Origin: Bacteroidales bacterium
GTDB lineage: Bacteria; Bacteroidota; Bacteroidia; Bacteroidales; VadinHA17
Direction: 5' to 3'
DNA: 61,853 nucleotides
Assembly (NCBI GenBank): GCA_021163295.1
Contig: JAGGXD010000142.1
Span: forward strand, 1-61,853
The notes under the pieces are model-generated. The model saw nothing but the letters and a program-made list of their open reading frames with translations, made no database searches and was not told where the DNA came from. Both the position numbers and the translations under genes were made by a program. Below are positions 39,770 to 57,009 of the stretch, piece after piece (the stretch's first letter is position 1; every line of letters starts with the position of its first letter).

Positions 39770-40405
39770 TTACTTTTCCGCTTTATTTTTCTTTTTTACA
39801 TAAAAAGCTACTTTCTCAACAGAGGTTATCATATCATGTTCTTCAAGATAAACACCAGGCGGAACATTGAGTGGTACGGTTGTGAAATTTAGAATACCTT
39901 TTATTCCTGCTTCCACAAGTTTGTTTGTTACATCCTGGGCTACATTTGGCGGGACTGTTAATATGGCAATTGATATTTTTTTATTTTTTGTGATTGTTTT
40001 TAAATGGTTAAAATGAAAACATTTCACCCCTTTCACTTTTGCACCAACCTTTTGATGGTTGGTATCAAATGAAGCTGCAACATCCAATTTTGATCTTTTC
40101 CCTGCAAAATAACCTGTAATAGCTTTACCCAGATGACCAAATCCAACAACTGCTACTTTCTGTCCTTCCTTCGAATCCAAAACCTCTCCGATTCCGGCAA
40201 TCAGCTCTTTTACATTATAACCGTTTTTATGCATCCCTGCATATCCTATCAACATAACATCTCTTCTAACCTGAACTGCAGTAATATACAAAAGTTTAGC
40301 CAAATCGTGTGAGAAAATATGATCTCTGTTTTTTGTTAAATAGTTTAATAATACACGACGATATGCACTTAATCTTTCAATAGTTTTACCCGGCAGGTTA
40401 TTCAT
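39770..40405 (-). CDS. rex: Redox-sensing transcriptional repressor Rex (paralogue 1)
   Basis: N-terminal winged-helix segment (TIERLSAYRRVL...VQVRRDV) and Rossmann motif VVGFGHLGKA. Length is 211 aa. Confidence 0.85.
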   Translation of the reverse strand: MNNLPGKTIERLSAYRRVLLNYLTKNRDHIFSHDLAKLLYITAVQVRRDVMLIGYAGMHKNGYNVKELIAGIGEVLDSKEGQKVAVVGFGHLGKAITGYFAGKRSKLDVAASFDTNHQKVGAKVKGVKCFHFNHLKTITKNKKISIAILTVPPNVAQDVTNKLVEAGIKGILNFTTVPLNVPPGVYLEEHDMITSVEKVAFYVKKKNKAEK

Positions 40406-40549: not shown

Positions 40550-41023
40550 TTATTTTTTTGCATCGAGACAGGAGTTACAGCGCAATTCATCGGCTTGAAT
40601 TATTTCTGATACCTGGCATCCAACCCTGCTACAAATGCCTATGCAATTTCTAAAGTCCGCATTCTTATCTGTAAACATGGTAAATAAATAAGCACCACAG
40701 GCACATCGTCTGTAAATCGGCAATTTCACACCACATTCAGGACAAAAGAATTCCAATATTTCACCATTTTCAAGCTCAACTTCACAAGCAATCCACGATT
40801 TGTCACCACAGAAAGGACTCAAGGCAATGTGTCCTTCCTTATTATTACCTTTTACTTTCAGGTAGATTCCTTTTTGATTGTTAAAAATAGCACGGTTGTT
40901 AATCAAAGAATGTCCATTCTGGCAATATACTTCTTCAATAACCCAAACTTTCTTTTGCCTGACAGCAACTTTTTTATCGGGTTTTGGAAATACTAACATT
41001 CCTTTAGAATTGAACCTTCTCAT
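40550..41023 (-). CDS. Cys-rich putative metal-binding protein, hydrogenase-associated (paralogue of 51406..51810)
   Basis: 157 aa. It shares an ordered motif set with the 134-aa ORF: C-x3-H, LSPFCG, FFCPECG, CACG and ICSRVGC. It lies 43 bp downstream of the endopeptidase gene. Confidence 0.6.
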   Translation of the reverse strand: MRRFNSKGMLVFPKPDKKVAVRQKKVWVIEEVYCQNGHSLINNRAIFNNQKGIYLKVKGNNKEGHIALSPFCGDKSWIACEVELENGEILEFFCPECGVKLPIYRRCACGAYLFTMFTDKNADFRNCIGICSRVGCQVSEIIQADELRCNSCLDAKK

Positions 41024-41573: not shown

Positions 41574-43037
41574 TCAGTCTCTTTTTACAGTTCTTATAAT
41601 TTTCCCGTCTTTATCCCTGAAATTAACCTGTAACGGCATTTCTCCGGGCAATCGGTGAGTAGCACATGAAAAGCAGGGGTCGTATGCTCTGAAAGCCATT
41701 TCAATCATATTCAATATCCCGTCAGAAACATCAACTCCTTTTTTTATCAGTCCCTGGGCAGCTTTTTTCAAAGACATACAGATAGCTGCATTATTATTTG
41801 TAGTACCAACAATGATATTGGCTTTTTTCACTATTCCTTTATTGTCTGTCCAGTAATGGTGTGTAAGTGTCCCTCTCTGTGCCTCAACAATACCAACACC
41901 TTCATCGGGTATATTTGTCAGAGGGGTTCTTAATTCAGACCCTGTAATATCAGGATCAGAAGCAAGTTCAACAAGTCTTTCAGAGCTGTAAAGAAGCTCT
42001 ATCAAACGGGCCCAGTGCATAGCCAGAGTAGCATGAACCGGCTTACCACCAAGGATCTCATACATTTTCTCATATTCAACCTGTGCAAGAGGAGTAGCCA
42101 TTCCATCAGCAGCATTAAGTCTTGAAAGCGGTGTGGCATGGTAAACTCCTGAATCCTGACCATCAACAAATCCTTTCCATCCAATTTTTTTCAGGTATGG
42201 AAACTTAAGATAACTCCATGTCTCGACTCTTTCTTCAACAAAATCTCTATAATCTTCAGCAGCATATTTACAATGCTCTTTACCAACAGTATCAACAACC
42301 CTTACTTTTCCTTCATAAAAATTGACTTTATTATTTTCATCAACCAAACCCATTGAGTGAAGAGTCAGTGAATAGGGACCATTTAAAATAAGGTCAACAT
42401 AGTCCTTATTCTGAAGAACAACATCATTAAACAGCTTAAGTGAAAATTTCGAGAATTCAACAAACCCCTCTCCCTTTTTTAATACATCATCCCGCTCTTC
42501 CTTAGTAAGACCTTTTCTAACCCCTCCGGGAATATTCATTACAACATGTGTTTGATGACCTCCTAACAGAGCCTGTATCTCCTGGGCAATTCTCCTCTGT
42601 TTCAGAACTTCCGTCCCGATCTCCACTCCAACTTTTTCTATCACACCAAGAATATTTCGTTTAGCAGGATCCGCATCAGGACCAACCACAAAGTCAGGTG
42701 CAGCAAGAGCATAAAAATGGGCAATATGGCTATGTACAAAATGTGCCATATAGAAAAGCTCCCTGAGTTTCTTTGCAGTTGGTGGAGGCTCAACGTCATA
42801 GACAGCATCAGCCGCTTTTCCTGCAGCCATATGATGGCATCCGGGGCATACACCACAAATTTTTGTAACAATCTGCGATAATTCTTCCACCGGGCGTCCT
42901 TCACAAAACTTTTCAAATCCTCTTAGCTCGGGCACCTGAAAATAAACATTCTCAACTTCTCCTGAATCTTTCAGGAATATTTCAATCTTCCCATGTCCTT
43001 CAAGACGTGTTATGGGATCTATTGTTATTTGTTTCAT
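41574..43037 (-). CDS. mvhA: [NiFe]-hydrogenase large subunit, Mvh/group-3c-like by context
   Basis: RLEGHGKIEI, KICGVCPGCHH (N-terminal Ni-ligand motif) and DPCFSCATH plus a cleavable tail. Its neighbours are mvhG, mvhD and hdrA. Confidence 0.9.
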   Translation of the reverse strand: MKQITIDPITRLEGHGKIEIFLKDSGEVENVYFQVPELRGFEKFCEGRPVEELSQIVTKICGVCPGCHHMAAGKAADAVYDVEPPPTAKKLRELFYMAHFVHSHIAHFYALAAPDFVVGPDADPAKRNILGVIEKVGVEIGTEVLKQRRIAQEIQALLGGHQTHVVMNIPGGVRKGLTKEERDDVLKKGEGFVEFSKFSLKLFNDVVLQNKDYVDLILNGPYSLTLHSMGLVDENNKVNFYEGKVRVVDTVGKEHCKYAAEDYRDFVEERVETWSYLKFPYLKKIGWKGFVDGQDSGVYHATPLSRLNAADGMATPLAQVEYEKMYEILGGKPVHATLAMHWARLIELLYSSERLVELASDPDITGSELRTPLTNIPDEGVGIVEAQRGTLTHHYWTDNKGIVKKANIIVGTTNNNAAICMSLKKAAQGLIKKGVDVSDGILNMIEMAFRAYDPCFSCATHRLPGEMPLQVNFRDKDGKIIRTVKRD

Positions 43038-43052
43038 TTGTATAAAATAAAA

Positions 43053-44024
43053 TTAAACTATTGTTTTTCGAATAATTGAAGACGGCAAGCTGAAACGATA
43101 GAAAGTACCGGCAGGATCTACTACCTGATCAATAATTTTCTCAATCTCTTCAGGATCATCCGAATCGATCATAGTAGCAATAGCTGACATCATCTTTGCC
43201 CCCGGGTCAGTAGCAGTTGAAGGTGGTCCGTAACATCCCCTGCACGGTGCATTCCCTTTAATACATCTGGCACCGCAGCCTCCACGAGTTGCCGGACCCA
43301 TACAAATTACTCCCTGCTCCAGGAAACATGTTTTCCCATCATCCTCAATCTCCCATGGTCTTTTAAACTCCTTAATTACTTTTTCATCTGTTTTTTCTCT
43401 TTCACACTCATCACACAATGTTTTTTCGAGTGCACCAACTACTGAGCCTTTTGGTGGTAACTCTGCCCCGGTAACAATAGCCATAAACACCTCCACAAGT
43501 CTTTCTGTCTGAGGCGGACATCCCGGTAAATAATAATCAACGTCAACAACCTGATCAAGCGTTTTTACATCATTATAGAATTCGGGCAGTGTCAAAGTTC
43601 CCTCAGGCATTTTAGTTTCAGTTTGCGGTCTGGTTTTTTCCTCATTAACTGTTGATTCACTTGTTTGATAAGCTCTGTCGAAAATACCTTTTCTGTCAGA
43701 GAAGTTTCCCAAACCGGGAATCCCTCCCATATGCGCACATGAGCCATACGCAACTAATATCTTGGTTTTTTTTCTTAGAAGTTTGGCAATATGTTCATTC
43801 TCACTGTTCCTGATTGCACCATTATACAGGGTAAGATCAATGTAATCGTCATCCATTGCTTCCACATCTTTATATTTAAAATCCAAAGCAATGGGCCAGA
43901 ATACCAGATCGGCAGCAGCAACTACATCTAATAATTTTTCGTGTACATCAAGAACTGACACACAGCATCCGCCACAGGCAGCTCCCCAGTAAACGGCCAT
44001 TTTGATTTTTGGTTTTTGTGACAT
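43053..44024 (-). CDS. mvhG: [NiFe]-hydrogenase small subunit (MvhG-like)
   Basis: YWGAACGGCCVS proximal-cluster motif, GSCAHMGGIPG, and a Cys-rich C-terminus. Confidence 0.85.
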   Translation of the reverse strand: MSQKPKIKMAVYWGAACGGCCVSVLDVHEKLLDVVAAADLVFWPIALDFKYKDVEAMDDDYIDLTLYNGAIRNSENEHIAKLLRKKTKILVAYGSCAHMGGIPGLGNFSDRKGIFDRAYQTSESTVNEEKTRPQTETKMPEGTLTLPEFYNDVKTLDQVVDVDYYLPGCPPQTERLVEVFMAIVTGAELPPKGSVVGALEKTLCDECEREKTDEKVIKEFKRPWEIEDDGKTCFLEQGVICMGPATRGGCGARCIKGNAPCRGCYGPPSTATDPGAKMMSAIATMIDSDDPEEIEKIIDQVVDPAGTFYRFSLPSSIIRKTIV

Positions 44025-44038
44025 AACAATATTTCTTT

Positions 44039-44464
44039 TTAGTCAAATATTTCCATTTCCTCTTTCACCTTGCATGGACCCAGGCTCTTAATTGTTTCAG
44101 CCATTTCATCCGCCAGCTGGGCAAACTCTTTACCTTCGCTGGCACTTATCCATGCAAGTTTAAGCCTGTCAGGATTAAGTCCCATCTGGGCCATATACTT
44201 TTTCAGGAAATGATACCTCCTGAGGCATTTATAATTTCCTTCGTGATAATGACAATCGCCGGGGTGGCAACCACAGATCAATACTCCATCTGCCCCTTCC
44301 CGAAATGATTTCAGAACAAAAGTAGGATCCACCCTACCGGAGCACATAACCCGGACAACACGTATGTTAGACGCATATTTCATTCTGGATGTACCTGCAA
44401 GGTCAGCCCCTGTATATGAACACCAGTTACATAAAAATGATACGATTTTTGGTTCAAATTCCAT
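44039..44464 (-). CDS. mvhD: MvhD-like hydrogenase iron-sulfur subunit
   Basis: 141 aa. FLCNWCSY...VMCSGRVD...ICGCHPGDCHY is the MvhD/FlpD signature. Confidence 0.85.
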   Translation of the reverse strand: MEFEPKIVSFLCNWCSYTGADLAGTSRMKYASNIRVVRVMCSGRVDPTFVLKSFREGADGVLICGCHPGDCHYHEGNYKCLRRYHFLKKYMAQMGLNPDRLKLAWISASEGKEFAQLADEMAETIKSLGPCKVKEEMEIFD

Positions 44465-44466
44465 AA

Positions 44467-46197
44467 TTATACCTCCTGCATTTCCTTTGAAAATAGACCT
44501 TCAATTTGTGATAATATTTGTTCGTCGGTAAAATGACGAGCTCTGATTGCTCCTGTAGGACAAGCAGAACCACATGTTCCGCATCCCTTACATAAAATTT
44601 CATTTACAACCGAAACATTTTTCTCCTCATCAAAACTAATTGCAGTGTAAGGACAAACCTTAATACAGGTTTGACAACCACAACAAACATCTTCATTTAC
44701 CACCGCGGTAGTAACCTCAACTTCAACTGTCCCACGGGCTATTGATGCTAATATTCTGGCTGCTGCTGCTTTTGCCTGGGAAACCGAATCGGGAATATCC
44801 TTTGGACCCTGGCAAGTCCCTGCTATATACACTCCATCAGTGGTAGTAGCAACCGGATCCAGCTTCGGATGCCTTTCAATATAGAATTCGTTACCGCAAA
44901 GACTTATTCCAACAGCATGAGCAACTTCCTTAGCTTCTTCATGAGCCTCCATTGCAACCATCAGGACAACCATATCAGCCGGAACAATGATATCTTCACC
45001 TGATAATTTTTCATAAAATTCAATACCCATTTCATATCCGGCATCTTCTTCTGCTTTGCTTATCCTTGGTAAATCACCCTGCTGATCGTACATCAGGAAC
45101 ATAACATCTTTCTTCGATGTTGATGCATAAAACTCTTCGCATCCCTTTCCAAATGCACGCATATCAGCATAAATCTGGAATAAGTTTGTTTCAGGCAGGG
45201 CTGACCGGAGTTGATTTGAAAATTTTAATGCGCTAAGGCAGCAAACCCTTGAGCAATATTCATGATAATCTGCATTTCTACTTCCAACACAATGAATAAT
45301 GGCAATCTTTTTGGGCTCACTTCCATCTTTCTTAACCACATTGCCCTCCTTCAACATCTTTTCAAGCTCAAGAGAGGTTATAACATCAGGTAGTTTTTCA
45401 TAATTATATGAACTGATCTTTCCGGGATCAAAGGGAGTTAAACCTGTTGCAACAATTATATTTCCAAACTTCAACTCATATTCTTTACCCCCGGATTTAA
45501 TTGTTGATTCAAAATTCCCCACATAACCAAACACCTCATCGATTGTTGTATTCAGGTAAACCTCCACTTCAGGATGGTTATTCACTTTATATATCAAAGG
45601 CTCAAGCACTTCAGCAGCACTGTTTAGCCCCGGGAATGTAAGGTCAATATTAGCGACATGGCCTCCAAGGTTTCCTGTTTTCTCAACCAGGTAAACTTTA
45701 TTACCTGCATCCGCCAGTTCCAGGGCTGCTGATAATCCGGTAACTCCTCCGCCGATCACCATGGTCGCAGGATTAATGTCCACCGACCTTTTATCAAGAG
45801 CTTCATGGAAATTCACCCTGTTTACCGCCCCTTTTACCAGGTCCAGTGCCTTAATAGTAGCCTCTTCACGATTGTCGTGTACCCATGAAACCTGTTCCCT
45901 GATATTCGCCATCTCGAACATATACTGGTTTAAACCGGCATTTTCAAGAGCTTTGCGGAAAGTTAGTTCATGAATTCGAGGTGAACAAGCCGATACAACA
46001 ACCCTGTTCAATTTATGCTCTTTAATATCCTTAACGATCATTTCCTGACCGGGATCAGAGCACATATACTTATAGTCTTTTGCGATAACAACATTTGGGA
46101 GTTTGGCAATTTTTGCTGCAACTGCCTCAACATCTACCATTTTAGCTATGTTGGTACCACACCAGCAGACATATACACCTATTCTTTTTTCTTCCAT
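44467..46197 (-). CDS. hdrA: HdrA-like FAD/FeS oxidoreductase (paralogue 2, Cys-containing N-domain)
   Basis: N-domain Cys residues (VCWCG..C..C), GGGVTGLSAALELADAG, HCVGSRN..CSRVCC, and a C-terminal 2x CxxCxxCxxxCP. Confidence 0.85.
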   Translation of the reverse strand: MEEKRIGVYVCWCGTNIAKMVDVEAVAAKIAKLPNVVIAKDYKYMCSDPGQEMIVKDIKEHKLNRVVVSACSPRIHELTFRKALENAGLNQYMFEMANIREQVSWVHDNREEATIKALDLVKGAVNRVNFHEALDKRSVDINPATMVIGGGVTGLSAALELADAGNKVYLVEKTGNLGGHVANIDLTFPGLNSAAEVLEPLIYKVNNHPEVEVYLNTTIDEVFGYVGNFESTIKSGGKEYELKFGNIIVATGLTPFDPGKISSYNYEKLPDVITSLELEKMLKEGNVVKKDGSEPKKIAIIHCVGSRNADYHEYCSRVCCLSALKFSNQLRSALPETNLFQIYADMRAFGKGCEEFYASTSKKDVMFLMYDQQGDLPRISKAEEDAGYEMGIEFYEKLSGEDIIVPADMVVLMVAMEAHEEAKEVAHAVGISLCGNEFYIERHPKLDPVATTTDGVYIAGTCQGPKDIPDSVSQAKAAAARILASIARGTVEVEVTTAVVNEDVCCGCQTCIKVCPYTAISFDEEKNVSVVNEILCKGCGTCGSACPTGAIRARHFTDEQILSQIEGLFSKEMQEV

Positions 46198-46224
46198 TGT
46201 TTGCTGCTTTAAAATTTTATTTTT

Positions 46225-47289
46225 TTAACTGTTAAGTTCAGCACTTTTAATATTTGCAAAATATACTGCAAACGAGCGATAAAGAAAATGTGTCCACTTT
46301 CCAAATGGAACAATTAATATACCCCATTGAGCAATAACAATTAAGTGTACTATATATAACCACAAATTATTACTGATAAGATCTGTGTCAATGAGAATTC
46401 GTACAATAAATGCGGTAAATCCCATCAGGAAAAGCCAGATAACAAATAACCAATCACTCGGGTGAGAAAATTTACTTAGTTCTTTTTTCTTTTTGACACG
46501 TTCAAGTATAAAATCAAACGTGATAATAAACACCAATCCGCCAACAATATATCCGAACCAGATAATATAGGTGTTTTCAGTTGAAAACCAATTGAGAAAA
46601 ACTGTCGTGATAAGCAAGAGAATATAGCCAAACACAACCAGTAAATGCTCAAACCAACGGAATGTATTCTTTTCACATTTCAAGGATTTTTTTTGAGTAA
46701 ACATATGAAGGAACAGATCCCAAATTCCTTTGACGTATAATAAGAAAGGCGCTTTTATTTTTTCTTTTATTATTGTTAACCAAAACATATGAAAGATATT
46801 TGGTATTAAGATTAAAACAACAACAGAAAAAATCAACATTTTTTCGAAAACATGTCCGAATTCCATTATTGACTCGAGATTGAATTGTTTTGCATAACCA
46901 ACACCAATAATTGAAACAGCCACTAATACAAAAGCAATTATCAATGCCGGAACAGATTTAAAGAAAAGACCGGAAAGACCTGTCCAGTCATAAACCGAGG
47001 TCAGATACCTGCGGGCAGACATCATCATCTCACCAGGGTTAGCATCTCTCGGGCAGGTTTCTGAACAGTCGCCACAATAATAGCACAACCATGGATCGAT
47101 ATTACTATTAAATTTATCTTTCAGACCCATTTGTAACTGGCGGATTACTTTCCGCGGGAACAGATTTTCATTTTCGGTAAGAGAGCAAACAGCAGTGCAA
47201 TTCCCACAATGGTAACACTCGTTCCATTCACTCTTATTACCAAATTTTACAAGTTTTGCATTCAGATCCGGATTAACAACGGTACTCAT
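46225..47289 (-). CDS. Fusion of an HdrC-like 2x[4Fe-4S] domain with a polytopic NarI/HdrE-like membrane domain (QmoC-like)
   Basis: CYHCGNCTAVC and CYYCGDCSETCP lie in the first ~80 aa. About 6 hydrophobic helices follow, with intramembrane His residues, and the protein ends in PFGKWTHFLYR. Confidence 0.7.
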   Translation of the reverse strand: MSTVVNPDLNAKLVKFGNKSEWNECYHCGNCTAVCSLTENENLFPRKVIRQLQMGLKDKFNSNIDPWLCYYCGDCSETCPRDANPGEMMMSARRYLTSVYDWTGLSGLFFKSVPALIIAFVLVAVSIIGVGYAKQFNLESIMEFGHVFEKMLIFSVVVLILIPNIFHMFWLTIIKEKIKAPFLLYVKGIWDLFLHMFTQKKSLKCEKNTFRWFEHLLVVFGYILLLITTVFLNWFSTENTYIIWFGYIVGGLVFIITFDFILERVKKKKELSKFSHPSDWLFVIWLFLMGFTAFIVRILIDTDLISNNLWLYIVHLIVIAQWGILIVPFGKWTHFLYRSFAVYFANIKSAELNS

Positions 47290-47291
47290 AA

Positions 47292-49082
47292 TTATTCCTC
47301 CGTACTTATAAGTTCATTAACTTTTGTTTCTATATCATTGTAAGAAAGATCGCTCAGACCTTTTTTTACTTTGCTGTTTATGACACTCTGTATCACCCGT
47401 GCTGCAGCAGCAGAACCCTGGGCAACTGAATCCGGAATATCTTTTGGCCCCTGACATACACCGGCGACAAATATCCCTCCCCTTACAGTGTTAACCGTTT
47501 GGTTTGTTGAATTTAATTCAGCGAACCATCCTATATCATCAGTTAGAATGTTAAGAGATTTAGCAAGTTTTTGCGAATCCTCACCGGGTTCCAGTCCAAC
47601 TGAAAGCACAACCATATCAACTTCTTTTTCGATCAGTTTCATGCCTTCAATATCCTCAGACCGCAGTACCAGATTGCCATTTTTTTCCTCAACCTTGGCG
47701 GTACGTCCTCTGATAATATCTATCCCTTCCTTCTTAATTCTTTCATAGAATTCCTCGTATCCCTTTCCAAATGACCGCATATCTATGTAATACTCACTAA
47801 CATCAGCATCAGGTAATTTTTCTTTAACAAGATGTGCCATTTTCAAAGAATACATACAACATACACGTGAACAATGAGTATTGTAGTTTTCATCACGGCT
47901 ACCGACACAATGAATAAGGGCAATTCTTTCCGGACTATCGCTATTAGCTTCGAATATCCCATTTCCCTTCTTATCCTTGCTCCTGAATACTATGCTTCCT
48001 CCGGTAGGACCCGCAGCGTTAAGCAAGCGTTCAAACTCAAGAGAAGTAAGCACATTAGGGTATTTTCCATAACCAAACCTTTCAACTTTTTCAGCATCAA
48101 AAGTCTTGAATCCGGTCGCAACAACAATATTACCCACTTTAATCTCAATGGTTTCATCTTTATCATCCAGATAAATACATTCAACCGGGCATACTTTTGC
48201 ACAAACACCACATTTACCTTTTTGCACATATGTACAATTGTCTCCATCAAGAATATATTTATTCGGCACAGCCTGTGGGAAAGGAATATATATTGCTTTC
48301 CGCATAGTAGTCCCCGCATCAAATTCACTTGGAACATTAACAGGACATTTTTCTGTACAATCGCCACAACCGATACAGGTAGCCAGATCAACCCGCCTGG
48401 TTTTTTTAAATACTTTTACAGTATAATCGCCAGCCTCCCCCGAGACATCAAGAACCTCACTGTATGTAAGCAACTCAATGTTTTGATGTTGGCCGACCTC
48501 TACCATTTTTGGGGTCAGAATACAAGCTGCACAATCAAGTGTCGGGAATGTTTTATCAAACATCGCCATGTGACCACCAATAGTACCTGTCTTTTCAATA
48601 AGAGTTACGTCTATGCCCGCATTTGCAATTTCAAGCGAAGCCTGAATACCGGCAATACCAGCTCCAATTACAAGAGTTTTTTTATTCACCTCATTCCCTG
48701 GAGAATCTGAAGCCAACTCAAAATGCACATCCTTCACAGCACAAAGTATTTTTGCTTTAAAGACAGATAACAAATCTCCATCGCTCAAAATTGTACCGTT
48801 TACCGACACCAGGGTAAGATCTTCCGGGTTTTTTCCTGCATCAGCCAAAGAAGCAGATACAAAAGATTTTAATTCTCCCGGACTTCTCCCGGCAACAATT
48901 ATTTTTTCCACCCCGTTTTCTTTAATCCTGGTTGAAAGACTTTTTTTGTCTTTCATTGAAAAGTCTGTGGCAAACCAGACCTCTTTTACTTCAGGAAATT
49001 CACCGGCAAACTGTTCAAGTTTTTCAAGACCGGAATTCATTCTTTCCTGAAAAATAACTGCCCTGGAATTTTGTTTTACCAT
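47292..49082 (-). CDS. HdrA-like FAD/FeS oxidoreductase (paralogue 1, Cys-less N-domain, inserted ferredoxin domain)
   Basis: VIGAGIAGIQASLEIANAG, inserted CIGCGDCTEKCP...CGVCAKVCP, and HCVGSRD..CSRVCC. Confidence 0.8.
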   Translation of the reverse strand: MVKQNSRAVIFQERMNSGLEKLEQFAGEFPEVKEVWFATDFSMKDKKSLSTRIKENGVEKIIVAGRSPGELKSFVSASLADAGKNPEDLTLVSVNGTILSDGDLLSVFKAKILCAVKDVHFELASDSPGNEVNKKTLVIGAGIAGIQASLEIANAGIDVTLIEKTGTIGGHMAMFDKTFPTLDCAACILTPKMVEVGQHQNIELLTYSEVLDVSGEAGDYTVKVFKKTRRVDLATCIGCGDCTEKCPVNVPSEFDAGTTMRKAIYIPFPQAVPNKYILDGDNCTYVQKGKCGVCAKVCPVECIYLDDKDETIEIKVGNIVVATGFKTFDAEKVERFGYGKYPNVLTSLEFERLLNAAGPTGGSIVFRSKDKKGNGIFEANSDSPERIALIHCVGSRDENYNTHCSRVCCMYSLKMAHLVKEKLPDADVSEYYIDMRSFGKGYEEFYERIKKEGIDIIRGRTAKVEEKNGNLVLRSEDIEGMKLIEKEVDMVVLSVGLEPGEDSQKLAKSLNILTDDIGWFAELNSTNQTVNTVRGGIFVAGVCQGPKDIPDSVAQGSAAAARVIQSVINSKVKKGLSDLSYNDIETKVNELISTEE

Positions 49083-49311
49083 TATATAAATTCAGTTAAG
49101 TATAATAAGCAACATTATGATATATTAATCACAATAAAAGTATATTATATTATATTTATTAGCAACACTTAGCATGCAAATATGATGTATAACATATTCC
49201 GGTTATTTGCTGCCGTATTCTATTTTATTGATTTTCTTTCTTTTATACCTTATTTTTATTCTTTAAAAATAGAGTGGTTTCATTTGGCAAGATTATTTTT
49301 TTTTTGTTATT

Positions 49312-49329
49312 TTGTGAATAATGTAACAT
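49312..49329. promoter_or_regulatory. Weak Rex-box-like site just upstream of rex paralogue 2
   Basis: TTGTGAA-TAAT-GTAACAT. The left half-site is perfect and the right half-site has 3 mismatches to TTCACAA. It ends 3 nt before the ATG at 49333. Confidence 0.25.
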
Positions 49330-49332
49330 GTA

Positions 49333-49956
49333 ATGTATTTACGAAGTAATATTACACGGCTTTTACAATACCGTAGTTGCCTGACAAAGTTCCAGGAACT
49401 GGGATTTGAAACTATCTATTCATATAATCTCGGAATGCATATAGGTGTTAGTGCAGAGCAAATCAGGAAAGATTTTTCAAAATTTAATATACGAGGAAAT
49501 AAAAAAGCTGGCTATAATATTGAAAAATTAATTACCGCCATAAATAAAATTTTTAATAAAACTTCGCCTCAAAACATATTACTTATAGGATATGGTAATT
49601 TAGGACAGTCTCTAATAAAATACAAGGGTTTCTCAAGGAGCATGTTTTATATTAAAGCTATTATTGACATTGATCCGTCAAAACATAAAAGGAAAACTAC
49701 AGTTCCTGTTTTTCCCCCCGAGAAAGCCCCGGAGATTATTAAGAAAAACGGAATTAAAATCGGAATTATCGCAGTCCCTGATATTGCAGCACAGGAAATA
49801 TGTAATATGATTGTTAAAGCAGGGATCAAAGGGATACTGAATTTCAGCAGCCTTGTATTAAAAGCTCCTGAAGATGTTCAAATTAACAATATTAATCTCG
49901 GGAATGAACTGGAGGCTATTTTTTATCACATACAATTGAAAAAGAAAAATATCTGA
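49333..49956 (+). CDS. rex: Redox-sensing transcriptional repressor Rex (paralogue 2)
   Basis: ITRLLQYRSCL...AEQIRKDFS wHTH segment and LLIGYGNLGQSL Rossmann motif. It is divergent from the hdrA/mvh string. Confidence 0.85.
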   Translation: MYLRSNITRLLQYRSCLTKFQELGFETIYSYNLGMHIGVSAEQIRKDFSKFNIRGNKKAGYNIEKLITAINKIFNKTSPQNILLIGYGNLGQSLIKYKGFSRSMFYIKAIIDIDPSKHKRKTTVPVFPPEKAPEIIKKNGIKIGIIAVPDIAAQEICNMIVKAGIKGILNFSSLVLKAPEDVQINNINLGNELEAIFYHIQLKKKNI

Positions 49957-49960
49957 CCTG

Positions 49961-50746
49961 TCAGTCTCTCTCCTGAAGCCACCGGTTCCACTGCTCCATT
50001 CCCTCTTCTGTTTTTGCTGAAAGTTCAAAAAATTTCAGATCGGGATTCACCTGGCAGGCATACTCCTTGAATTTTTCAACATCAAAATCAACATACGGCA
50101 ACAGATCTGTTTTATTAATTACACAGATATCTGATGACTGAAACATATCGGGATACTTAATAGGTTTGTCCTCTCCTTCAGTAACGCTAACAATCACAAC
50201 CCTCTGAGATTCACCAAGGTCAAACATGGCAGGACACACCAGATTTCCAACGTTCTCTATCAGAAGAATAGAATTATCTTTTACCTCAAGGGACTTTACC
50301 GCTTTGTTTATCATATCGGCATCAAGATGACAACCAGCCCCGGTATTAATCTGTATAACAGGAGCTCCGGCCTTTTCGATACGATTAGCATCAAGCATGG
50401 TTTGCTGATCACCCTCAATTATATAGAAAGAACATTTATCTTTCAATATCCTGATAGTTTTCTCAAGAAGACTGGTCTTGCCGGAACCTGGAGAACTAAC
50501 CAGGTTCACAGCAAAAATTTTTTTTGCTTCGAAATATCCCCTGTTCCGCTCAGCCAGCAGATCATTCTTCTGAAGAATATTCTGTTCAATAACAATTTCA
50601 CGACTCCCGGAATGATCATGGTCATGATCTCCATGTGTATGGCTATGGGTTACTCCCCCATGGGAATGAGTATGTTCTTTATTTTCACCTGGTTTTCTAA
50701 AAGTAACATTTTCTCCTGGTTGTCCGCATCCGCAATTATCACACAT
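49961..50746 (-). CDS. hypB: Hydrogenase nickel-incorporation GTPase HypB
   Basis: N-terminal MCDNCGCG Ni site, His-rich tract HTHSHGGVTHSHTHGDHDHDH, and P-loop SSPGSGKTSLL. Confidence 0.9.
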   Translation of the reverse strand: MCDNCGCGQPGENVTFRKPGENKEHTHSHGGVTHSHTHGDHDHDHSGSREIVIEQNILQKNDLLAERNRGYFEAKKIFAVNLVSSPGSGKTSLLEKTIRILKDKCSFYIIEGDQQTMLDANRIEKAGAPVIQINTGAGCHLDADMINKAVKSLEVKDNSILLIENVGNLVCPAMFDLGESQRVVIVSVTEGEDKPIKYPDMFQSSDICVINKTDLLPYVDFDVEKFKEYACQVNPDLKFFELSAKTEEGMEQWNRWLQERD

Positions 50747-50847
50747 ATTTTTCGCTTTTTAGAGTCAACACAAACTTGTAACAAAACTAACTAAAATTAT
50801 TTCGCGAATTTATTAAAAATAATTATGAAGCAGGCTTTGCTTATGAT

Positions 50848-51189
50848 TTATTCGATTGTAATTGATTTCAGTTGTATCTCTTTCCCCTGAAGAATTTCTT
50901 TACCAAACTCTCTACATTTTGGGCATGGAGAAAAATAATCATCCACACTATAAATATGACCACATCTCCTGCACTTAGCTTTAGCCTCTATTTTATTTAT
51001 CTTCCATACTGCTTTTGAGCAAACGGAATCTTTCACTGCTTCTTCAAGAGCAAACTCAAGTGCATCAATTACTACTCCTGATAAGGTCCCTACATCTATT
51101 TCAAATATATCCACATTAAGTGCCTTTTCCTTCTCAGCATTGTCCTCTATCATTTCTACTATATTAACCGCTATCGATAATTCATGCAT
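50848..51189 (-). CDS. hypA: Hydrogenase nickel metallochaperone HypA
   Basis: MHELSIA N-terminus and zinc motifs CRRCGH / CPKC. Length is 113 aa. Confidence 0.9.
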   Translation of the reverse strand: MHELSIAVNIVEMIEDNAEKEKALNVDIFEIDVGTLSGVVIDALEFALEEAVKDSVCSKAVWKINKIEAKAKCRRCGHIYSVDDYFSPCPKCREFGKEILQGKEIQLKSITIE

Positions 51190-51405
51190 ATCATCTCTTT
51201 TCAGTAAATCACAATTACAAAAAATCAGTGTGTAAAAATAATACTTTTTACTAATAACCTAATCCTGCATCTTGAATCAACAATGCTTACACCTAACTTT
51301 TCTTTTTCGCGCCTTGCTCATCGCTTTCTGCACCCGGCATTTGGTTTATTAATTTATTTTTCGTAAAATCAAATATATTTTCTATCACTAAATTATGGAG
51401 GTAAA

Positions 51406-51810
51406 ATGAAAAATCTAATTGCACTCAGAACTAAATGTCCTTACTGCAAGAAGTCTTTTATGGATCCATACGATCAGATCAATGGCAAACCCAGCATCAA
51501 GGTAGATATTGAAGCAAATGGCAAAAAAGGAAGGTTCAGATTATGTTCATATTATGGCTGTTTTGACCATAAAAGCAGCATTGAACTCCCAAAAGACGAG
51601 CCAATTAAGTTTTTTTGTCCGCACTGTAACAAGGAACTTACAAGTTCTAATAAATGCGAAGAATGCGGTTCTCCTATGATCCCGTTTGCACTGGAAAAAG
51701 GCGGGAAAGTTCATATCTGTTCAAAGGTTGGATGCAACAAACACTTTATTTCCTTCCAGGATGTTTCAGATGCATTGCGCAAAATGTATAATGAATTTGG
51801 TTACTTCTAA
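51406..51810 (+). CDS. Cys-rich putative metal-binding protein, hydrogenase-associated (paralogue of 40550..41023)
   Basis: 134 aa with five Cys pairs (CPYC, CSYYGC, FFCPHC, CEECG, ICSKVGC) colinear with the 157-aa ORF. GGAGGT lies at 51397-51402, just before the ATG. Confidence 0.6.
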   Translation: MKNLIALRTKCPYCKKSFMDPYDQINGKPSIKVDIEANGKKGRFRLCSYYGCFDHKSSIELPKDEPIKFFCPHCNKELTSSNKCEECGSPMIPFALEKGGKVHICSKVGCNKHFISFQDVSDALRKMYNEFGYF

Positions 51811-51815
51811 AGAAA

Positions 51816-51883
51816 GGTGAGTAGTTGAGTAAGGTGAGTAGTTGAGTAAGGTGAGTAGTTGAGTAAGGTGAGTAGTTGAGTAA
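51816..51883 (+). repeat. 4 x perfect 17-mer array (GGTGAGTAGTTGAGTAA)
   Basis: Read directly. It starts 5 nt after the stop of the Cys-rich 134-aa gene, in the spacer convergent with hypE. Confidence 0.95.
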
Positions 51884-51939
51884 GGAAGAGAAAAGAGTTC
51901 AAGGTTCAGTAACCAGTATTTTGAACATTAAGTTTTTTT

Positions 51940-52965
51940 CTAACAAATCCTTGGAAGCTGCTCTCCCGTCAGCATATCAACTATCCTGGTGCCTCCAATA
52001 GCTGTTTTCAGTATTACCTTGCCCGGGTGTTTTTCAGTTATTTCCCCGATAACAGAAGCTTTCTTACCGAAAGTGTTATGCTGCAATTTATCAAGTACCT
52101 TATCCACATCCAATGAGTCGATTACCATAATTACTTTCCCCTCATTTGCCATATAAAGAGGGTCATATCCGAAAATCTCACAAGCACTTTGCACACTGCT
52201 TAACACCGGTATATTCTCTTCGTCAGCCTCAATACCAAACCCCCTTGTTTCAGAGAGTTCGCACAAAACCGTTGCAAGTCCGCCCCTTGTAGCATCACGC
52301 ATAAAATGTATACCGGATGAGATACTCAGAACTGATTGTATCATTTTGTTAAGAGAGGCACAATCAGATTTCAGACTCACACTAAAACTCATATTTTCGC
52401 GTGCAGAAAGAATAGCGACACCATGATCTCCAACACTACCATTAACAATTATTTTATCACCGGGTTTTATTTTCTGCCCGGTGCTTATTGAATGGTTTTT
52501 CCGGGGCAAATAGCCCACGCCGGCAGTATTAATAAATAGTTTATCACATTTTCCCTTATTAACAACCTTGGTATCACCTGTCACAATTTGCACTCCTGCT
52601 TTACGTGATTCTTCAGCCATGGTACTGACTATTTTTTCAAGATCCGTTATGGAAAAGCCTTCTTCAATAATAAATGAGGCACTCAGATATTGTGGCTTTG
52701 CTCCGGACACAGCCAGATCATTAACAGTACCACATACTGCAAGTTTCCCTATATTTCCACCGGGGAAAAATATTGGATCTACCACATATGAATCTGTAGT
52801 AAAAGCAATCCCTTCATCTGCTCCGGGAATACATGCAGAATCAGTTTGTTCGGATAATATTTTATTTGAAAAATACTTTACAAAAATATCGCTGATAAGG
52901 TCATGGGACAGTTTTCCACCACTGCCATGTCCCAGCAATATAACTTTTTCAGAATTCTTGTTCAT
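51940..52965 (-). CDS. hypE: Hydrogenase maturation protein HypE
   Basis: AIR-synthase-like fold and the canonical C-terminal PRIC. Length is 341 aa. Confidence 0.9.
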   Translation of the reverse strand: MNKNSEKVILLGHGSGGKLSHDLISDIFVKYFSNKILSEQTDSACIPGADEGIAFTTDSYVVDPIFFPGGNIGKLAVCGTVNDLAVSGAKPQYLSASFIIEEGFSITDLEKIVSTMAEESRKAGVQIVTGDTKVVNKGKCDKLFINTAGVGYLPRKNHSISTGQKIKPGDKIIVNGSVGDHGVAILSARENMSFSVSLKSDCASLNKMIQSVLSISSGIHFMRDATRGGLATVLCELSETRGFGIEADEENIPVLSSVQSACEIFGYDPLYMANEGKVIMVIDSLDVDKVLDKLQHNTFGKKASVIGEITEKHPGKVILKTAIGGTRIVDMLTGEQLPRIC

Positions 52966-53002
52966 AGATCAATATATAATAAAATTATAACTCATATTAA
53001 AT

Positions 53003-53034
53003 TGGAATACTGGAATATTGGAATACTGGAATAT
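53003..53034 (+). repeat. 4 x TGGAATAY octamer array in the hypD-hypE spacer
   Basis: TGGAATAC TGGAATAT TGGAATAC TGGAATAT, read directly. It faces a C/T-rich tract (53059-53105) containing two TATTCC complements. Confidence 0.9.
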
Positions 53035-53106
53035 TTAAAAGAGCATTTTATTTATTTTATTCCTATTCTTCATTTCTTCCCAATCTTCCATTATTCCATT
53101 CTTCCT

Positions 53107-54186: not shown

Positions 54187-54437
54187 ACTTTCCTGCCCTG
54201 CTCTTCCCGGTCCATTTCCCTATTTAACTCTTCCAATTCCTCAAACAATGCAAGAGTTTCAGCTGCATCAGCGGGACTGATCTTCTGTAATGCAAATCCG
54301 GTATGAAGCAGAACATAATCACCAATCTCAACATCATCAAGCATTTGAAGACTGGCATTTACAATTGTTTCGCCAACAGCGACCCTGGCCATTTCTCCAT
54401 TAATTTCAACAATTTTTGCCGGCACACTTAAACACAT
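54183..54437 (-). CDS. hypC: Hydrogenase maturation protein HypC
   Basis: MCLSVPAKIVEI N-terminus, 84 aa. It overlaps hypF and hypD. Confidence 0.9.
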   Translation of the reverse strand: MCLSVPAKIVEINGEMARVAVGETIVNASLQMLDDVEIGDYVLLHTGFALQKISPADAAETLALFEELEELNREMDREEQGRKV

Positions 54438-56991: not shown

Positions 56992-57009
56992 CTGTTAATT
57001 TTTTCACAA
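56992..57009. promoter_or_regulatory. Candidate Rex operator upstream of hoxF
   Basis: CTGTTAA-TTTT-TTCACAA has 2 mismatches to the TTGTGAA-N4-TTCACAA consensus. It ends 33 nt upstream of the hoxF ATG. Confidence 0.5.

What the first reader, a model, noticed from the sequence alone, without database searches (positions are those of the whole stretch)
41574..49082. Mvh-type hydrogenase teamed with two different HdrA paralogues and a QmoC-like membrane subunit, with no HdrB/HdrC
The transcription order is HdrA-like-1, QmoC-like, HdrA-like-2, MvhD, MvhG, MvhA, endopeptidase. In methanogens, MvhADG delivers electrons to HdrABC, whose HdrB CCG domains reduce heterodisulfide. No CCG-domain protein is present in this window. 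The FeS/membrane fusion (2x CxxCxxCxxxC plus about 6 helices with intramembrane His residues, ending PFGKWTHFLYR) instead has the architecture of QmoC from sulfate reducers. In QmoC, an HdrC-like domain is fused to an HdrE/NarI-like cytochrome b. Two HdrA-like flavoproteins likewise parallel QmoA and QmoB. No sat, apr or dsr genes are nearby. This suggests a membrane-anchored complex linking H2, a low-potential carrier (ferredoxin) and the quinone pool. It may work by flavin-based bifurcation or confurcation. I am not aware of a characterised complex with this composition.
Basis: partly seen in the sequence, partly recalled or inferred. Interest (0 to 1): 0.8.

Follow-up and report, generated by a model that had tools for sequence, protein, structure and literature searches.

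The report
Membrane-anchored Mvh hydrogenase with QmoC-like subunit
A Bacteroidota gene cluster joins a cytoplasmic hydrogen-splitting enzyme to two complementary flavoproteins and a membrane cytochrome instead of the usual disulfide reductase, which probably lets it trade electrons between hydrogen, ferredoxin and the membrane quinone pool; the design is widespread but has never been studied.

Summary
Seven tightly packed minus-strand genes encode HdrA-like-1, a QmoC-like FeS/cytochrome b fusion, HdrA-like-2, MvhD, MvhG, MvhA and a maturation protease. They are flanked by two Rex genes and a complete hyp set. No CCG-domain (HdrB/HdrD) protein is in the window.

The 354-aa protein matches NCBIfam qmoC end to end but scores below its cutoff (155 vs 300 bits). 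Its AlphaFold model (pLDDT 94.6) has an HdrC-like N-domain and a NarI-like six-helix domain. H215, H315 and H334 are near-invariant; H146 is conserved within its clade.

The two HdrA paralogues have lost complementary parts, so together they keep one copy of each accessory FeS module of a methanogen HdrA dimer. Both keep the E356/K409 flavin-site residues.

The operon is not unique. The same layout occurs in many Bacteroidales, Ignavibacteriales and an Aminicenantes-labelled MAG, and other Mvh plus QmoC-like layouts occur in distant lineages.

Best reading: a reversible, flavin-based bifurcating H2:menaquinone plus ferredoxin oxidoreductase, with QmoC replacing HdrBC. This is inferred, not shown. 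I found no published description and no cultured host. I rate it a new variant of a known kind.

The parts
47292..49082 (-). HdrA-like-1 (596 aa). It has the FAD/TrxR core and the inserted 2x[4Fe-4S] ferredoxin domain. It keeps the DCxxC and CxxxCC motifs and the E356/K409 equivalents. Its N-terminal domain has lost the cluster cysteines, and it has no C-terminal ferredoxin domain.
   Evidence: NCBIfam HdrA2 546 bits. Aligns to residues 52-563 of 5odc_A in one stretch. Motif table across loci.
46225..47289 (-). QmoC-like subunit (354 aa). It has an N-terminal HdrC-like 2x[4Fe-4S] domain and a six-TM NarI-like putative di-haem cytochrome b domain. Candidate haem ligands are H146 and H315 on the outer side and H215 and H334 on the cytoplasmic side.
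   Evidence: NCBIfam qmoC 154.9 bits, model positions 10-359 of 360, below the 300-bit cutoff. PDB HdrC E 1e-12. AF2 model pLDDT 94.6. Foldseek hits HdrC (prob 1.0) and NarI (prob 0.99). Residue conservation.
44467..46197 (-). HdrA-like-2 (576 aa). It keeps the N-terminal cluster motif, the FAD/TrxR core with E356/K409 equivalents, and the C-terminal 2x[4Fe-4S] ferredoxin domain. It lacks the inserted ferredoxin domain and the DCxxC motif.
   Evidence: NCBIfam HdrA2 602 bits. Aligns to 5odc_A residues 1-234 and 318-651.
44039..44464 (-). MvhD, a [2Fe-2S] electron-transfer subunit. Its start is 2 nt after the HdrA-like-2 stop.
   Evidence: Pfam FlpD 183 bits; VhuD 136 bits. Gap measured.
43053..44024 (-). 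MvhG, the [NiFe]-hydrogenase small subunit. It has no Tat signal, so it is cytoplasmic.
   Evidence: VhuG 223.5 bits; Oxidored_q6. N-terminus read.
41574..43037 (-). MvhA, a group 3c-type [NiFe]-hydrogenase large subunit. It carries ICGVCPGCH and AYDPCFSCATH motifs and a C-terminal extension for proteolytic maturation.
   Evidence: VhuA 386 bits. Motifs read in the translation; motif definition from PMC6085437.
41067..41552 (-). Hydrogenase maturation endopeptidase.
   Evidence: TIGR00072 84.6 bits, above its 47.45-bit cutoff.
40550..41023 (-). Cys-rich 157-aa protein of unknown family. It follows the protease in several window-type loci and is a paralogue of ORF 51406-51810.
   Evidence: No significant family match. 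Synteny. Paralogy E 4e-10.
39770..40405 (-). Rex redox-sensing repressor, downstream copy.
   Evidence: NF003995 204 bits, above its 126-bit cutoff.
49333..49956 (+). Rex redox-sensing repressor, divergent upstream copy.
   Evidence: NF003996 204 bits, above its 138-bit cutoff.
49083..49332 (.). Shared AT-rich intergenic region and presumed promoter of the operon. It contains a weak Rex-operator-like site at 49312-49329 (3 mismatches).
   Evidence: The total number of such sites in the window is at chance level.
49961..56689 (-). The hyp maturation set: hypB (49961-50746), hypA (50848-51189), hypE (51940-52965), hypD (53107-54186), hypC (54183-54437) and hypF (54428-56689). The plus-strand Cys-rich ORF 51406-51810 lies among them.
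   Evidence: Pfam hits. ORFs listed.

Best explanation
The operon encodes one membrane-anchored complex. A cytoplasmic group 3c [NiFe]-hydrogenase module (MvhAGD) is wired through a heterodimer of two complementary HdrA-type flavoproteins. From there one route leads to ferredoxin and another leads to a QmoC-like FeS/di-haem cytochrome b that exchanges electrons with menaquinone.

Proposed path:
- H2 is oxidised at MvhA, and electrons pass through MvhG and MvhD into HdrA-like-2. [quoted passage not shown]
- At an HdrA flavin the electron pair is split.
- The high-potential electron goes through the HdrC-like clusters of the QmoC-like subunit, then its haems, to menaquinone. This replaces the HdrC to HdrB to heterodisulfide route.

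The reaction 2 H2 + MK + 2 Fd(ox) = MKH2 + 2 Fd(red) + 2 H+ would be reversible. With textbook potentials the crossover is near 5 Pa H2. I lean slightly, about 55:45, towards H2 uptake as the robust direction. At very low H2 the complex could run backwards as a confurcating H2 valve.

Shown: gene content, order, domain content, conserved ligands, synteny. Inferred: complex formation, haem and quinone binding, ferredoxin as partner, bifurcation, direction.
For: 1. Co-transcription is likely. All genes are on one strand with gaps of 2-27 nt. HdrA1 to QmoC and HdrA2 to MvhD are separated by only 2 nt.

2. The exact order HdrA1-QmoC-HdrA2-MvhD-MvhG-MvhA is conserved in about 16-20 of the 80 best genome loci. 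These include Bacteroidales, Draconibacterium, Marinilabiliales and Ignavibacteriales. It is also present in L092 and in the Aminicenantes-labelled L094.

3. Mvh plus QmoC-like genes recur in other layouts in distant lineages: L087 and L088 (C-A-B-D-G-A order), L083/L084 (single HdrA) and L091 (with NuoEF-like genes).

4. The QmoC-like subunit is well supported. It matches the qmoC model over its full length. Its N-domain matches HdrC by sequence and fold. Its membrane domain has a NarI-like fold. All 8 FeS cysteines are invariant, and H215 (118/118), H315 (115/118) and H334 (117/118) are conserved, including in bona fide QmoC. Topology places H215 and H334 at the cytoplasmic side and H146 and H315 at the outer side.

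5. The two HdrAs show complementary degeneration, conserved in all 10 window-type loci sampled. Both keep the E356/K409 equivalents that mark bifurcating HdrA (residue roles from PMC12054007).

6. The published HdrA wiring matches what is retained here. The low-potential branch runs through the inserted ferredoxin domain and the high-potential branch through HdrC (PMC13518236).

7. No CCG protein is in the window.

8. Sister QmoC systems attach other donor modules to the same core, for example a GltD-type NAD(P)H module in L037. This argues that the HdrA pair plus QmoC is a reusable quinone-coupling unit.

9. A ferredoxin-reducing 2-oxoacid oxidoreductase sits 5 kb away. A UbiA/MqnP-like prenyltransferase is also in the window.
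Against: - There is no experimental evidence for any member.
- Haem and quinone binding are inferred. The fourth His, H146, is conserved only in the window's clade and its sister clade, and is shifted or absent elsewhere.
- The Foldseek E-values for NarI are weak, at 0.3-0.6.
- The QmoC-like protein fails the NCBIfam equivalog cutoff.
- Only 62 kb of the genome is visible. hdrBC, another acceptor, or a lack of menaquinone cannot be excluded. The UbiA-like protein is below all MqnP cutoffs.
- Heterodimer formation was not modelled.
- Rex-operator-like sites are not enriched over chance.
- The direction of operation is undetermined. If the quinone site is on the outer face, H2 evolution from menaquinol would also have to work against the membrane potential.
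Confidence: 0.5

Rival explanations
1. The complex is a plain, non-bifurcating H2:menaquinone oxidoreductase. The two HdrA-like proteins serve only as an electron wire or adaptor between MvhD and the QmoC-like cytochrome. Ferredoxin is not a substrate.
For: H2 to menaquinone is strongly exergonic on its own (textbook potentials). Many HdrA homologues are not known to bifurcate. The solved sHdrA (6tjr), which both paralogues match, is a minimal 349-residue HdrA.
Against: Both paralogues keep the E356/K409 flavin-site residues. The inserted and C-terminal ferredoxin domains are each retained once and conserved across loci, which would be unnecessary for a simple wire. Two flavoproteins of about 600 aa are a costly wire.
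Confidence: 0.15
2. The physiological role is H2 evolution. Reduced ferredoxin (from 2-oxoacid oxidation) and menaquinol (from NADH via Nqr or Nuo) are confurcated to H2 as a Rex-controlled redox valve. This is the same enzyme as in the best explanation, running in the reverse direction as its main mode.
For: Two Rex genes flank the operon. A weak Rex-like site lies in the promoter region, and another lies upstream of the neighbouring Hox hydrogenase. A ferredoxin-reducing 2-oxoacid oxidoreductase and an ADP-forming acetyl-CoA synthetase are adjacent. Characterised QmoC, NarI and HdrE relatives oxidise quinols towards the cytoplasm (PMC3333476).
Against: With menaquinone at about -75 mV and ferredoxin at about -500 mV, H2 evolution is exergonic only below about 5 Pa H2 (inference). 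It becomes harder still if quinol is oxidised at the outer face against the membrane potential. Rex sites are at chance frequency.
Confidence: 0.3
3. Mvh and the HdrA proteins form a soluble complex whose real high-potential partner is an HdrBC, HdrD or DsrC-type thiol/disulfide system encoded elsewhere. The QmoC-like protein is an optional or separate partner.
For: In methanogens and Archaeoglobus, Mvh works with HdrABC or HdlABC. Only 62 kb of the genome is visible. An apr-linked qmo cluster with both a CCG protein and a QmoC exists (L085).
Against: qmoC is inserted between the two hdrA genes, 2 nt after hdrA1. That position is conserved across phyla. There is no CCG protein in the window. 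None appears among the called genes of L092 and L094, or within the operon itself (which leaves no room between the mapped genes) in the other window-type loci; the flanks of the latter were screened only with the window's own proteins.
Confidence: 0.1
4. The QmoC-like subunit does not talk to the quinone pool. It acts as a membrane anchor, or passes electrons across the membrane to another acceptor such as a sulfur species. The closely related DsrE-linked clusters suggest this.
For: The nearest QmoC relatives sit in clusters with DsrE-like and GcvH-like proteins. The quinone site is not identifiable from sequence.
Against: The window operon carries no DsrE or sulfur-handling gene. The NarI-like fold and QmoC homology point to quinone chemistry. 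D. desulfuricans QmoC haems are reduced by quinols (PMC3333476).
Confidence: 0.08

Closest known systems
MvhADG-HdrABC (Vhu-Hdr) electron-bifurcating hydrogenase/heterodisulfide reductase of methanogens (PDB 5odc, 8rvu)
   Same: It has a group 3c [NiFe]-hydrogenase with MvhD. It has HdrA with FAD and the E356/K409 flavin-site residues, plus inserted and C-terminal ferredoxin domains. An HdrC-type 2x[4Fe-4S] module forms the high-potential branch.
   Different: There is no HdrB or CCG catalytic subunit. The HdrC-like module is fused to a six-TM cytochrome b-like domain. The HdrA homodimer is replaced by two complementary degenerate paralogues. The host is a bacterium that is not a methanogen.
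QmoABC of sulfate reducers and sulfur oxidisers (quinone-interacting membrane-bound oxidoreductase)
   Same: It has two HdrA-like flavoproteins plus an HdrC/cytochrome b fusion subunit. An MvhD module is associated with the B-type flavoprotein. Confurcation with a third low-potential partner, possibly a hydrogenase, has been proposed for it (PMC3333476, PMC3949148).
   Different: The QmoC-like protein scores below the equivalog cutoff and belongs to a sister clade. The flavoproteins are not orthologous to true QmoA and QmoB. MvhD is a separate gene. There is no aprBA or sat. A hydrogenase is encoded in cis.
Hydrogenase-free Qmo-like clusters of Bacteroidales and Anaerolineales: DsrE-like / MvhD-like / QmoA-like / QmoB-like / QmoC (e.g. 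Ancylomarina longa, L038). These are uncharacterised.
   Same: They hold the closest relatives of the window's QmoC (50-69% identity). They show the same A-type and B-type flavoprotein division.
   Different: They have no hydrogenase. They are accompanied by DsrE-like proteins, GcvH-like proteins or a GltD-type NAD(P)H module.
FixABCX / EtfABCX (bifurcating NADH:ferredoxin plus quinone oxidoreductase). This is a functional analogue only, named from my own knowledge.
   Same: It is a flavin-based bifurcation in which a quinone is the high-potential acceptor and ferredoxin or flavodoxin the low-potential one.
   Different: The proteins are unrelated (Etf flavoproteins). The donor is NADH, not H2. 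There is no transmembrane di-haem subunit.

Membership tests
Group 3c [NiFe]-hydrogenase (Mvh/Vhu type) | Large subunit with L1 ICGxCxxxH and L2 AYDPCxxCATH motifs | tested here: met
   ICGVCPGCH and AYDPCFSCATH are read in the translation. Motif definitions come from PMC6085437. VhuA scores 386 bits, below its equivalog cutoff of 800.
Group 3c [NiFe]-hydrogenase (Mvh/Vhu type) | MvhG small subunit and MvhD [2Fe-2S] subunit encoded alongside | tested here: met
   VhuG 223.5 bits. FlpD 183 bits and VhuD 136 bits.
Group 3c [NiFe]-hydrogenase (Mvh/Vhu type) | Partnered with a complete HdrABC | tested here: not met
   HdrA homologues are present, but no HdrB or CCG protein is in the window. The rest of the genome is not visible.
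QmoC (NCBIfam NF038018 equivalog) | Full-length match above the curated cutoff of 300 bits | tested here: not met
   154.9 bits over model positions 10-359 of 360. Bona fide members P0250 and P0270 score 433 and 399 bits.
QmoC (NCBIfam NF038018 equivalog) | N-terminal HdrC-like domain with two [4Fe-4S] motifs | tested here: met
   Eight cysteines are invariant in 118 sequences. HdrC hits by sequence and by fold, at 2.4 A over 107 columns.
QmoC (NCBIfam NF038018 equivalog) | HdrE/NarI-like membrane domain with His ligands for two haems b | tested here: inconclusive
   The model has six TM helices. NarI matches at prob 0.99 but E 0.3-0.6. H215, H315 and H334 are near-invariant, but H146 is conserved only within its clade. 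Haem binding cannot be tested here.
QmoC (NCBIfam NF038018 equivalog) | Genomic linkage to aprBA/sat and qmoAB | tested here: not met
   No apr, sat or dsr gene is in the window. A true apr-qmo locus is shown for comparison in L085.
QmoA/QmoB | Two distinct HdrA-like flavoproteins, the B subunit carrying a C-terminal MvhD domain | tested here: inconclusive
   Two paralogues are present. MvhD is a separate gene 2 nt downstream of HdrA-like-2 rather than fused. True QmoB in L081 is 745 aa with a fused FlpD domain.
QmoA/QmoB | Orthology to QmoA and QmoB of apr-linked systems | tested here: not met
   In the NJ tree, L081 QmoA and QmoB pair with each other. The window paralogues group with the Bacteroidales A-like and B-like proteins. 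The tree has no bootstraps and has long branches.
Bifurcating HdrA | FAD-binding TrxR core with E356 and K409 equivalents | tested here: met
   Both paralogues align with E and K at these positions. Residue roles come from PMC12054007.
Bifurcating HdrA | Full set of accessory FeS domains in one polypeptide (N-terminal cluster, inserted ferredoxin domain, C-terminal ferredoxin domain) | tested here: not met
   Each paralogue has only part of the set. The pair together has one of each.
Rex-regulated operon | Rex operator (TTGTGAA-N4-TTCACAA type) in the promoter | tested here: inconclusive
   One site with 3 mismatches lies at 49312-49329. The window has 9 such sites against 7.9 expected by chance. 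The Bacteroidota Rex motif may differ from this consensus.

The most novel reading that the evidence does not exclude
This is a previously unrecognised class of energy-converting hydrogenase. It is an HdrA-heterodimer-based bifurcating enzyme that uses membrane menaquinone, through a transmembrane di-haem QmoC-like subunit, as the high-potential partner and ferredoxin as the low-potential partner. H2 turnover would then be coupled both to the ferredoxin pool and, electrogenically, to the membrane potential. It would be widespread in anaerobic Bacteroidota and several other phyla. It would also be the natural 'third-partner-in-cis' model for the long-debated confurcation mechanism of QmoABC.
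Probability: 0.4. Interest if true: 0.8.

Novelty: new variant of a known kind. Interest (0 to 1): 0.62.

Why it matters
If the inferred wiring is right, three things follow.

1. Many sediment, groundwater and digester Bacteroidota would have a hydrogenase that links H2 directly to the quinone pool while banking the surplus energy as reduced ferredoxin. That would change how their H2 production and consumption and their energy yield are modelled. At present these genes are annotated only as 'heterodisulfide reductase subunit A family' and '4Fe-4S dicluster protein'.

2. It would show that the HdrA bifurcation module can use a membrane quinone instead of a disulfide.

3. It would give an experimentally cleaner system for an old question: does a Qmo-type complex need a third, low-potential partner? 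Here the partner, a hydrogenase, is encoded in the same operon.

The complementary degeneration of the two HdrA paralogues is also a neat case of a symmetric homodimer evolving into an asymmetric single-path heterodimer.

Tried and rejected
1. **Rex operator enrichment.** I found 9 matches against 7.9 expected, so there is no statistical support. Only the positions are suggestive.

2. **Sigma-70 promoter and terminator scan.** Counts were at or below the shuffle expectation, and Bacteroidota promoters are not covered by this scan. It is not informative for operon boundaries.

3. **Counting Mvh-linked QmoCs by nearest neighbour ('90 of 120').** I rejected this count. P0025 is 69% identical to the window's QmoC yet sits in a hydrogenase-free cluster, so QmoC similarity does not predict the partner.

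4. **Rfam scan of the window.** Nothing was found.

5. **Literature.** Six full-text searches and 12 papers read found no description of an Mvh plus QmoC-like operon. The key review of HdrA modules (Appel et al. 2021) is not held, so prior mention there cannot be excluded.

6. **Search for a cultured host.** All named close HdrA-like-1 homologues are MAGs. Cultured Ancylomarina longa has only the hydrogenase-free paralogous system.

7. **Whole-genome check for hdrBC, men and frd genes.** This was not possible.

8. **First CCG-motif control.** It failed for a technical reason: the locus had not yet been loaded into my ORF set. I repeated it successfully.

9. **His-to-His distances in the AF2 model.** Coordinates are not exposed to scripts, so haem-site geometry rests on topology only.

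Full report
**Observation.** The window is from a Bacteroidota genome. Supporting signs are GC of 34-41%, an LpxB, a T9SS-sorted giant protein, and closest loci that are all Bacteroidota MAGs.

Pfam and NCBIfam identify them as follows:
- two HdrA-family flavoproteins, at 546 and 602 bits to the HdrA2 model;
- a 354-aa FeS/membrane protein whose only full-length family match is qmoC (NF038018, 154.9 bits, E 3.7e-45, model positions 10-359 of 360, cutoff 300);
- MvhD (FlpD, 183 bits), MvhG (VhuG, 224 bits) and MvhA (VhuA, 386 bits);
- a maturation protease that passes TIGR00072.

MvhA carries the group 3c signature motifs ICGVCPGCH and AYDPCFSCATH. I read these; the motif definitions come from PMC6085437. 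MvhG has no Tat signal.

Intergenic gaps are 2, 27, 2, 14, 15 and 21 nt. The two 2-nt gaps pair HdrA1 with QmoC and HdrA2 with MvhD.

The operon is bracketed by two Rex genes, both above their NCBIfam cutoffs. Upstream is a complete hypBA-EDCF set, followed by a Hox-type NAD-linked [NiFe]-hydrogenase. Downstream are an ADP-forming acetyl-CoA synthetase, an aminotransferase and a three-subunit 2-oxoacid:ferredoxin oxidoreductase.

No CCG-domain protein is in the window (with a working positive control). No sat, apr or dsr gene turned up in any scan.

**The membrane subunit.** By sequence, its N-terminal 95 residues match solved HdrC (7bkb_C E 1.2e-12; 5odc_C E 1.3e-10).

An AlphaFold2 model built on 118 diverse homologues is very confident (pLDDT 94.6, pTM 0.91). 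It shows six TM helices (113-133, 138-174, 206-231, 240-266, 277-301, 305-329) and a C-terminal amphipathic helix.

Foldseek returns HdrC for the N-domain (prob 1.0, 2.4 A over 107 columns). For the membrane part it returns NarI of nitrate reductase A (prob 0.99, but E 0.3-0.6) and mycobacterial EtfD.

Across the 118 sequences the eight FeS cysteines and H215 are invariant. H315 (115/118), H334 (117/118), C205, D279, W280, K331 and R338 are nearly invariant.

With the FeS domain in the cytoplasm and Lys-rich loops inside, H215 and H334 lie at the cytoplasmic face and H146 and H315 at the outer face. That is the geometry expected for two bis-His haems b. H146 is conserved through the window's clade and its sister clade but is shifted or missing elsewhere. 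Two haems is therefore a good inference for this protein but not for the whole family.

Representatives P0250 and P0270 pass the qmoC cutoff (433 and 399 bits). The window protein and its neighbours score 140-230 bits. So it is a QmoC homologue from a sister group, not the apr-linked equivalog.

**The two flavoproteins.** I aligned both residue by residue to the solved M. thermolithotrophicus HdrA.
- HdrA-like-1 covers residues 52-563. It keeps the inserted two-cluster ferredoxin domain and the DCxxC and CxxxCC motifs. Its N-terminal domain has lost the cluster cysteines ('VVAACSPR' has become 'IVAGRSPG'). It ends before the C-terminal ferredoxin domain.
[quoted passage not shown] It skips the inserted domain (5odc_A residues 234 to 318) and has 'NSAAE' in place of 'DCSIC'.
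- Both keep the equivalents of E356 and K409, the residues reported to hold and tune the bifurcating FAD (PMC12054007).

The same complementary pattern is present in all ten window-type loci I tabulated. In methanogen complexes the low-potential electron leaves through the inserted ferredoxin domain and C-terminal ferredoxin region, and the high-potential one leaves through HdrC. The hydrogenase arm is refined together with the N- and C-terminal regions of HdrA (PMC13518236).

The pair here therefore retains exactly one copy of every element of that wiring. This is what one would expect if the symmetric (HdrA)2 dimer had become an asymmetric heterodimer with a single electron path. Heterodimer formation itself is inferred.

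**Distribution.** The QmoC-like family is large. It has 4213 proteins at E<=1e-5 in the 90%-clustered database and 1705 representatives at E<=1e-3 in the 50% library. At least 596 species-level genomes hold a match.

Among the 80 best genome loci, about 16-20 have the window's exact gene order. These are Bacteroidales, Draconibacterium, Marinilabiliales and Ignavibacteriales, often with hyp, Rex and Hox next door. L092 and the Aminicenantes-labelled L094 have it too.

Most of the other loci carry a hydrogenase-free paralogous system: (DsrE-like x2)-MvhD-like-QmoA-like-QmoB-like-small ORF-QmoC. One example is the cultured Ancylomarina longa. Variants have a GltD-type NAD(P)H module inserted in the A subunit, or GcvH-like and MvhD-like proteins fused to receiver domains.

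More distant QmoC-like proteins are again linked to Mvh in other layouts (L087, L088, L083/L084, L091). One sits in a genuine aprBA-qmoAB-(CCG protein)-qmoC cluster (L085).

In NJ trees without bootstraps, QmoCs from window-type operons fall in two clades. The window's clade is sister to the DsrE-linked Bacteroidales clade. HdrA-like-2 groups with the 'B-like' flavoproteins of the hydrogenase-free system, and HdrA-like-1 groups with its 'A-like' flavoproteins. True QmoA and QmoB (L081) pair with each other.

A QmoC 69% identical to the window's sits in a hydrogenase-free cluster, while one at 59% sits in a window-type island. The QmoC module thus appears to be exchangeable between systems. This fits a generic quinone-coupling role.

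**Mechanism.** The most economical reading is a single membrane-bound complex in which the QmoC-like subunit takes the place of HdrBC. H2 is oxidised by MvhAG. Electrons enter the HdrA pair through MvhD. At an HdrA flavin the pair is split. One electron goes through the HdrC-like clusters and the haems to menaquinone. The other goes through the ferredoxin domains to ferredoxin.

I used E0'(H+/H2) = -414 mV, menaquinone at about -75 mV (PMC3333476) and ferredoxin at about -500 mV (PMC9304861 abstract). With these values the mean acceptor potential is about -287 mV. The reaction is therefore exergonic in the uptake direction above roughly 5 Pa H2 and reversible below that. This is my own calculation and an inference.

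A transmembrane haem pair would add a membrane-potential term whose sign depends on where the quinone site lies.

I cannot decide the physiological direction.
- For H2 evolution: the Rex genes, the adjacent ferredoxin-reducing 2-oxoacid oxidoreductase, and the quinol-oxidising habit of known NarI, HdrE and QmoC proteins.
- For H2 uptake: thermodynamics at realistic H2 levels and the uptake role of Mvh in methanogens.

A UbiA/MqnP-like prenyltransferase at 10340-11215 passes TIGR01475 but none of the MqnP cutoffs. It is a weak hint of prenyl-quinone synthesis.

**Comparison with what is known.** The complex works like Mvh-HdrABC, with the disulfide branch swapped for a quinone branch. It looks like QmoABC with a hydrogenase added in cis.

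Two papers had speculated that a hydrogenase might be Qmo's missing partner (PMC3333476; PMC3949148). I found no paper describing an operon of this composition. The main review of HdrA modules is not in the library, so I cannot rule out an earlier mention.

Public annotations of the homologues are generic: 'CoB-CoM heterodisulfide reductase subunit A family', '4Fe-4S dicluster domain-containing protein', and occasionally 'QmoC' from JGI. No close homologue comes from a named cultured strain.

**Verdict.** The feature is real, conserved and widespread. It is a new variant of known kinds (Mvh-Hdr and Qmo) whose function is inferred, not shown. It is of solid interest to anaerobic bioenergetics because it offers a natural test case for quinone-linked HdrA bifurcation and for the Qmo confurcation hypothesis. 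The interest is tempered by the lack of a cultured host and by the invisible remainder of the genome.

Noticed in passing
L038:4772-11047 (Ancylomarina longa); also L009-L064, L072, L073, L077: A hydrogenase-free Qmo-like operon is very common in Bacteroidales and present in Anaerolineales. Its order is DsrE-like x2, MvhD-like, QmoA-like (about 433 aa), QmoB-like (about 644 aa), a small ORF of about 96 aa, and QmoC, with no apr/sat nearby. It appears uncharacterised and suggests a sulfur-carrier-to-menaquinone link.
   Followed up: partly
L093:2697-10059: A variant of that operon has a receiver-domain-GcvH fusion and a receiver-domain-MvhD (FlpD) fusion upstream of QmoA-like, QmoB-like and QmoC. 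A lipoyl-carrier-like protein next to HdrA-type proteins recalls the sHdr-LbpA sulfur-oxidation systems (from my own knowledge). Its QmoC is 69% identical to the window's.
   Followed up: no
L037:5002-7785 (also L012, L053, L059): In some hydrogenase-free clusters the QmoA-like protein is about 920 aa and carries an inserted GltD-type NAD(P)H-binding module (Fer4_20 plus Pyr_redox_2). This implies an NAD(P)H-linked version of the same QmoC-coupled core.
   Followed up: partly
window:40550-41023 (-) and window:51406-51810 (+): Two paralogous Cys-rich, zinc-ribbon-like small proteins (157 and 134 aa; 28% identity, E 4e-10) have no family assignment. One follows the hydrogenase protease and the other sits inside the hyp cluster. 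Both positions recur in related loci. They may be an unrecognised hydrogenase accessory factor.
   Followed up: partly
window:57043-61610 (+): A second [NiFe]-hydrogenase of the NAD-linked Hox type lies here: a HoxE-HoxF fusion (600 aa), HoxU, HoxY and HoxH. A Rex-operator-like site with 2 mismatches sits at 56992-57009, just upstream. The same Mvh-hyp-Rex-Hox island recurs in L068, L071 and L092.
   Followed up: partly
window:39770-40405 (-) and 49333-49956 (+): Two Rex paralogues bracket the operon. It is unusual to have two copies within 10 kb. Related loci carry one or the other.
   Followed up: no
QmoC genes of L065-L080 versus the window and L001-L007: Operons with near-identical HdrA and Mvh genes (56-84% identity) carry QmoCs from two different clades that are only 40-44% identical to each other. 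This suggests in-situ replacement of the QmoC module.
   Followed up: partly
window:32728-38978 (-): A ferredoxin-generating amino-acid or 2-oxoacid fermentation module lies directly downstream of the hydrogenase island. It comprises a three-subunit 2-oxoacid:ferredoxin oxidoreductase, an aminotransferase and an ADP-forming acetyl-CoA synthetase.
   Followed up: no
window:10340-11215 (+): A UbiA-family polyprenyltransferase passes TIGR01475 'ubiA_other' (273 bits). It resembles MqnP at 251-266 bits, below the MqnP cutoffs. It may be a quinone prenyltransferase.
   Followed up: partly
window:25825-32727 (+): A 2300-aa T9SS-sorted surface protein combines Fib_succ_major, LRR, MAM, DUF5018 and SprB-repeat domains. 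Next to it is a caspase-domain protein (21606-22943), and beyond a Kelch-repeat protein and an unassigned ORF, a 1093-aa Reg_prop/Y_Y_Y/SpoIIE regulator (18233-21514).
   Followed up: no
L085:1-8149: An apr-linked cluster reads aprB-aprA-qmoA-qmoB-(CCG/HdrD-like protein)-qmoC. It contains both a CCG protein and a QmoC. Its QmoC is of the intermediate type; a clade-mate (P0130) scores 190 bits against the 300-bit NCBIfam cutoff, and P0128 itself was not scanned. That cutoff may therefore exclude some genuinely apr-linked QmoCs.
   Followed up: no
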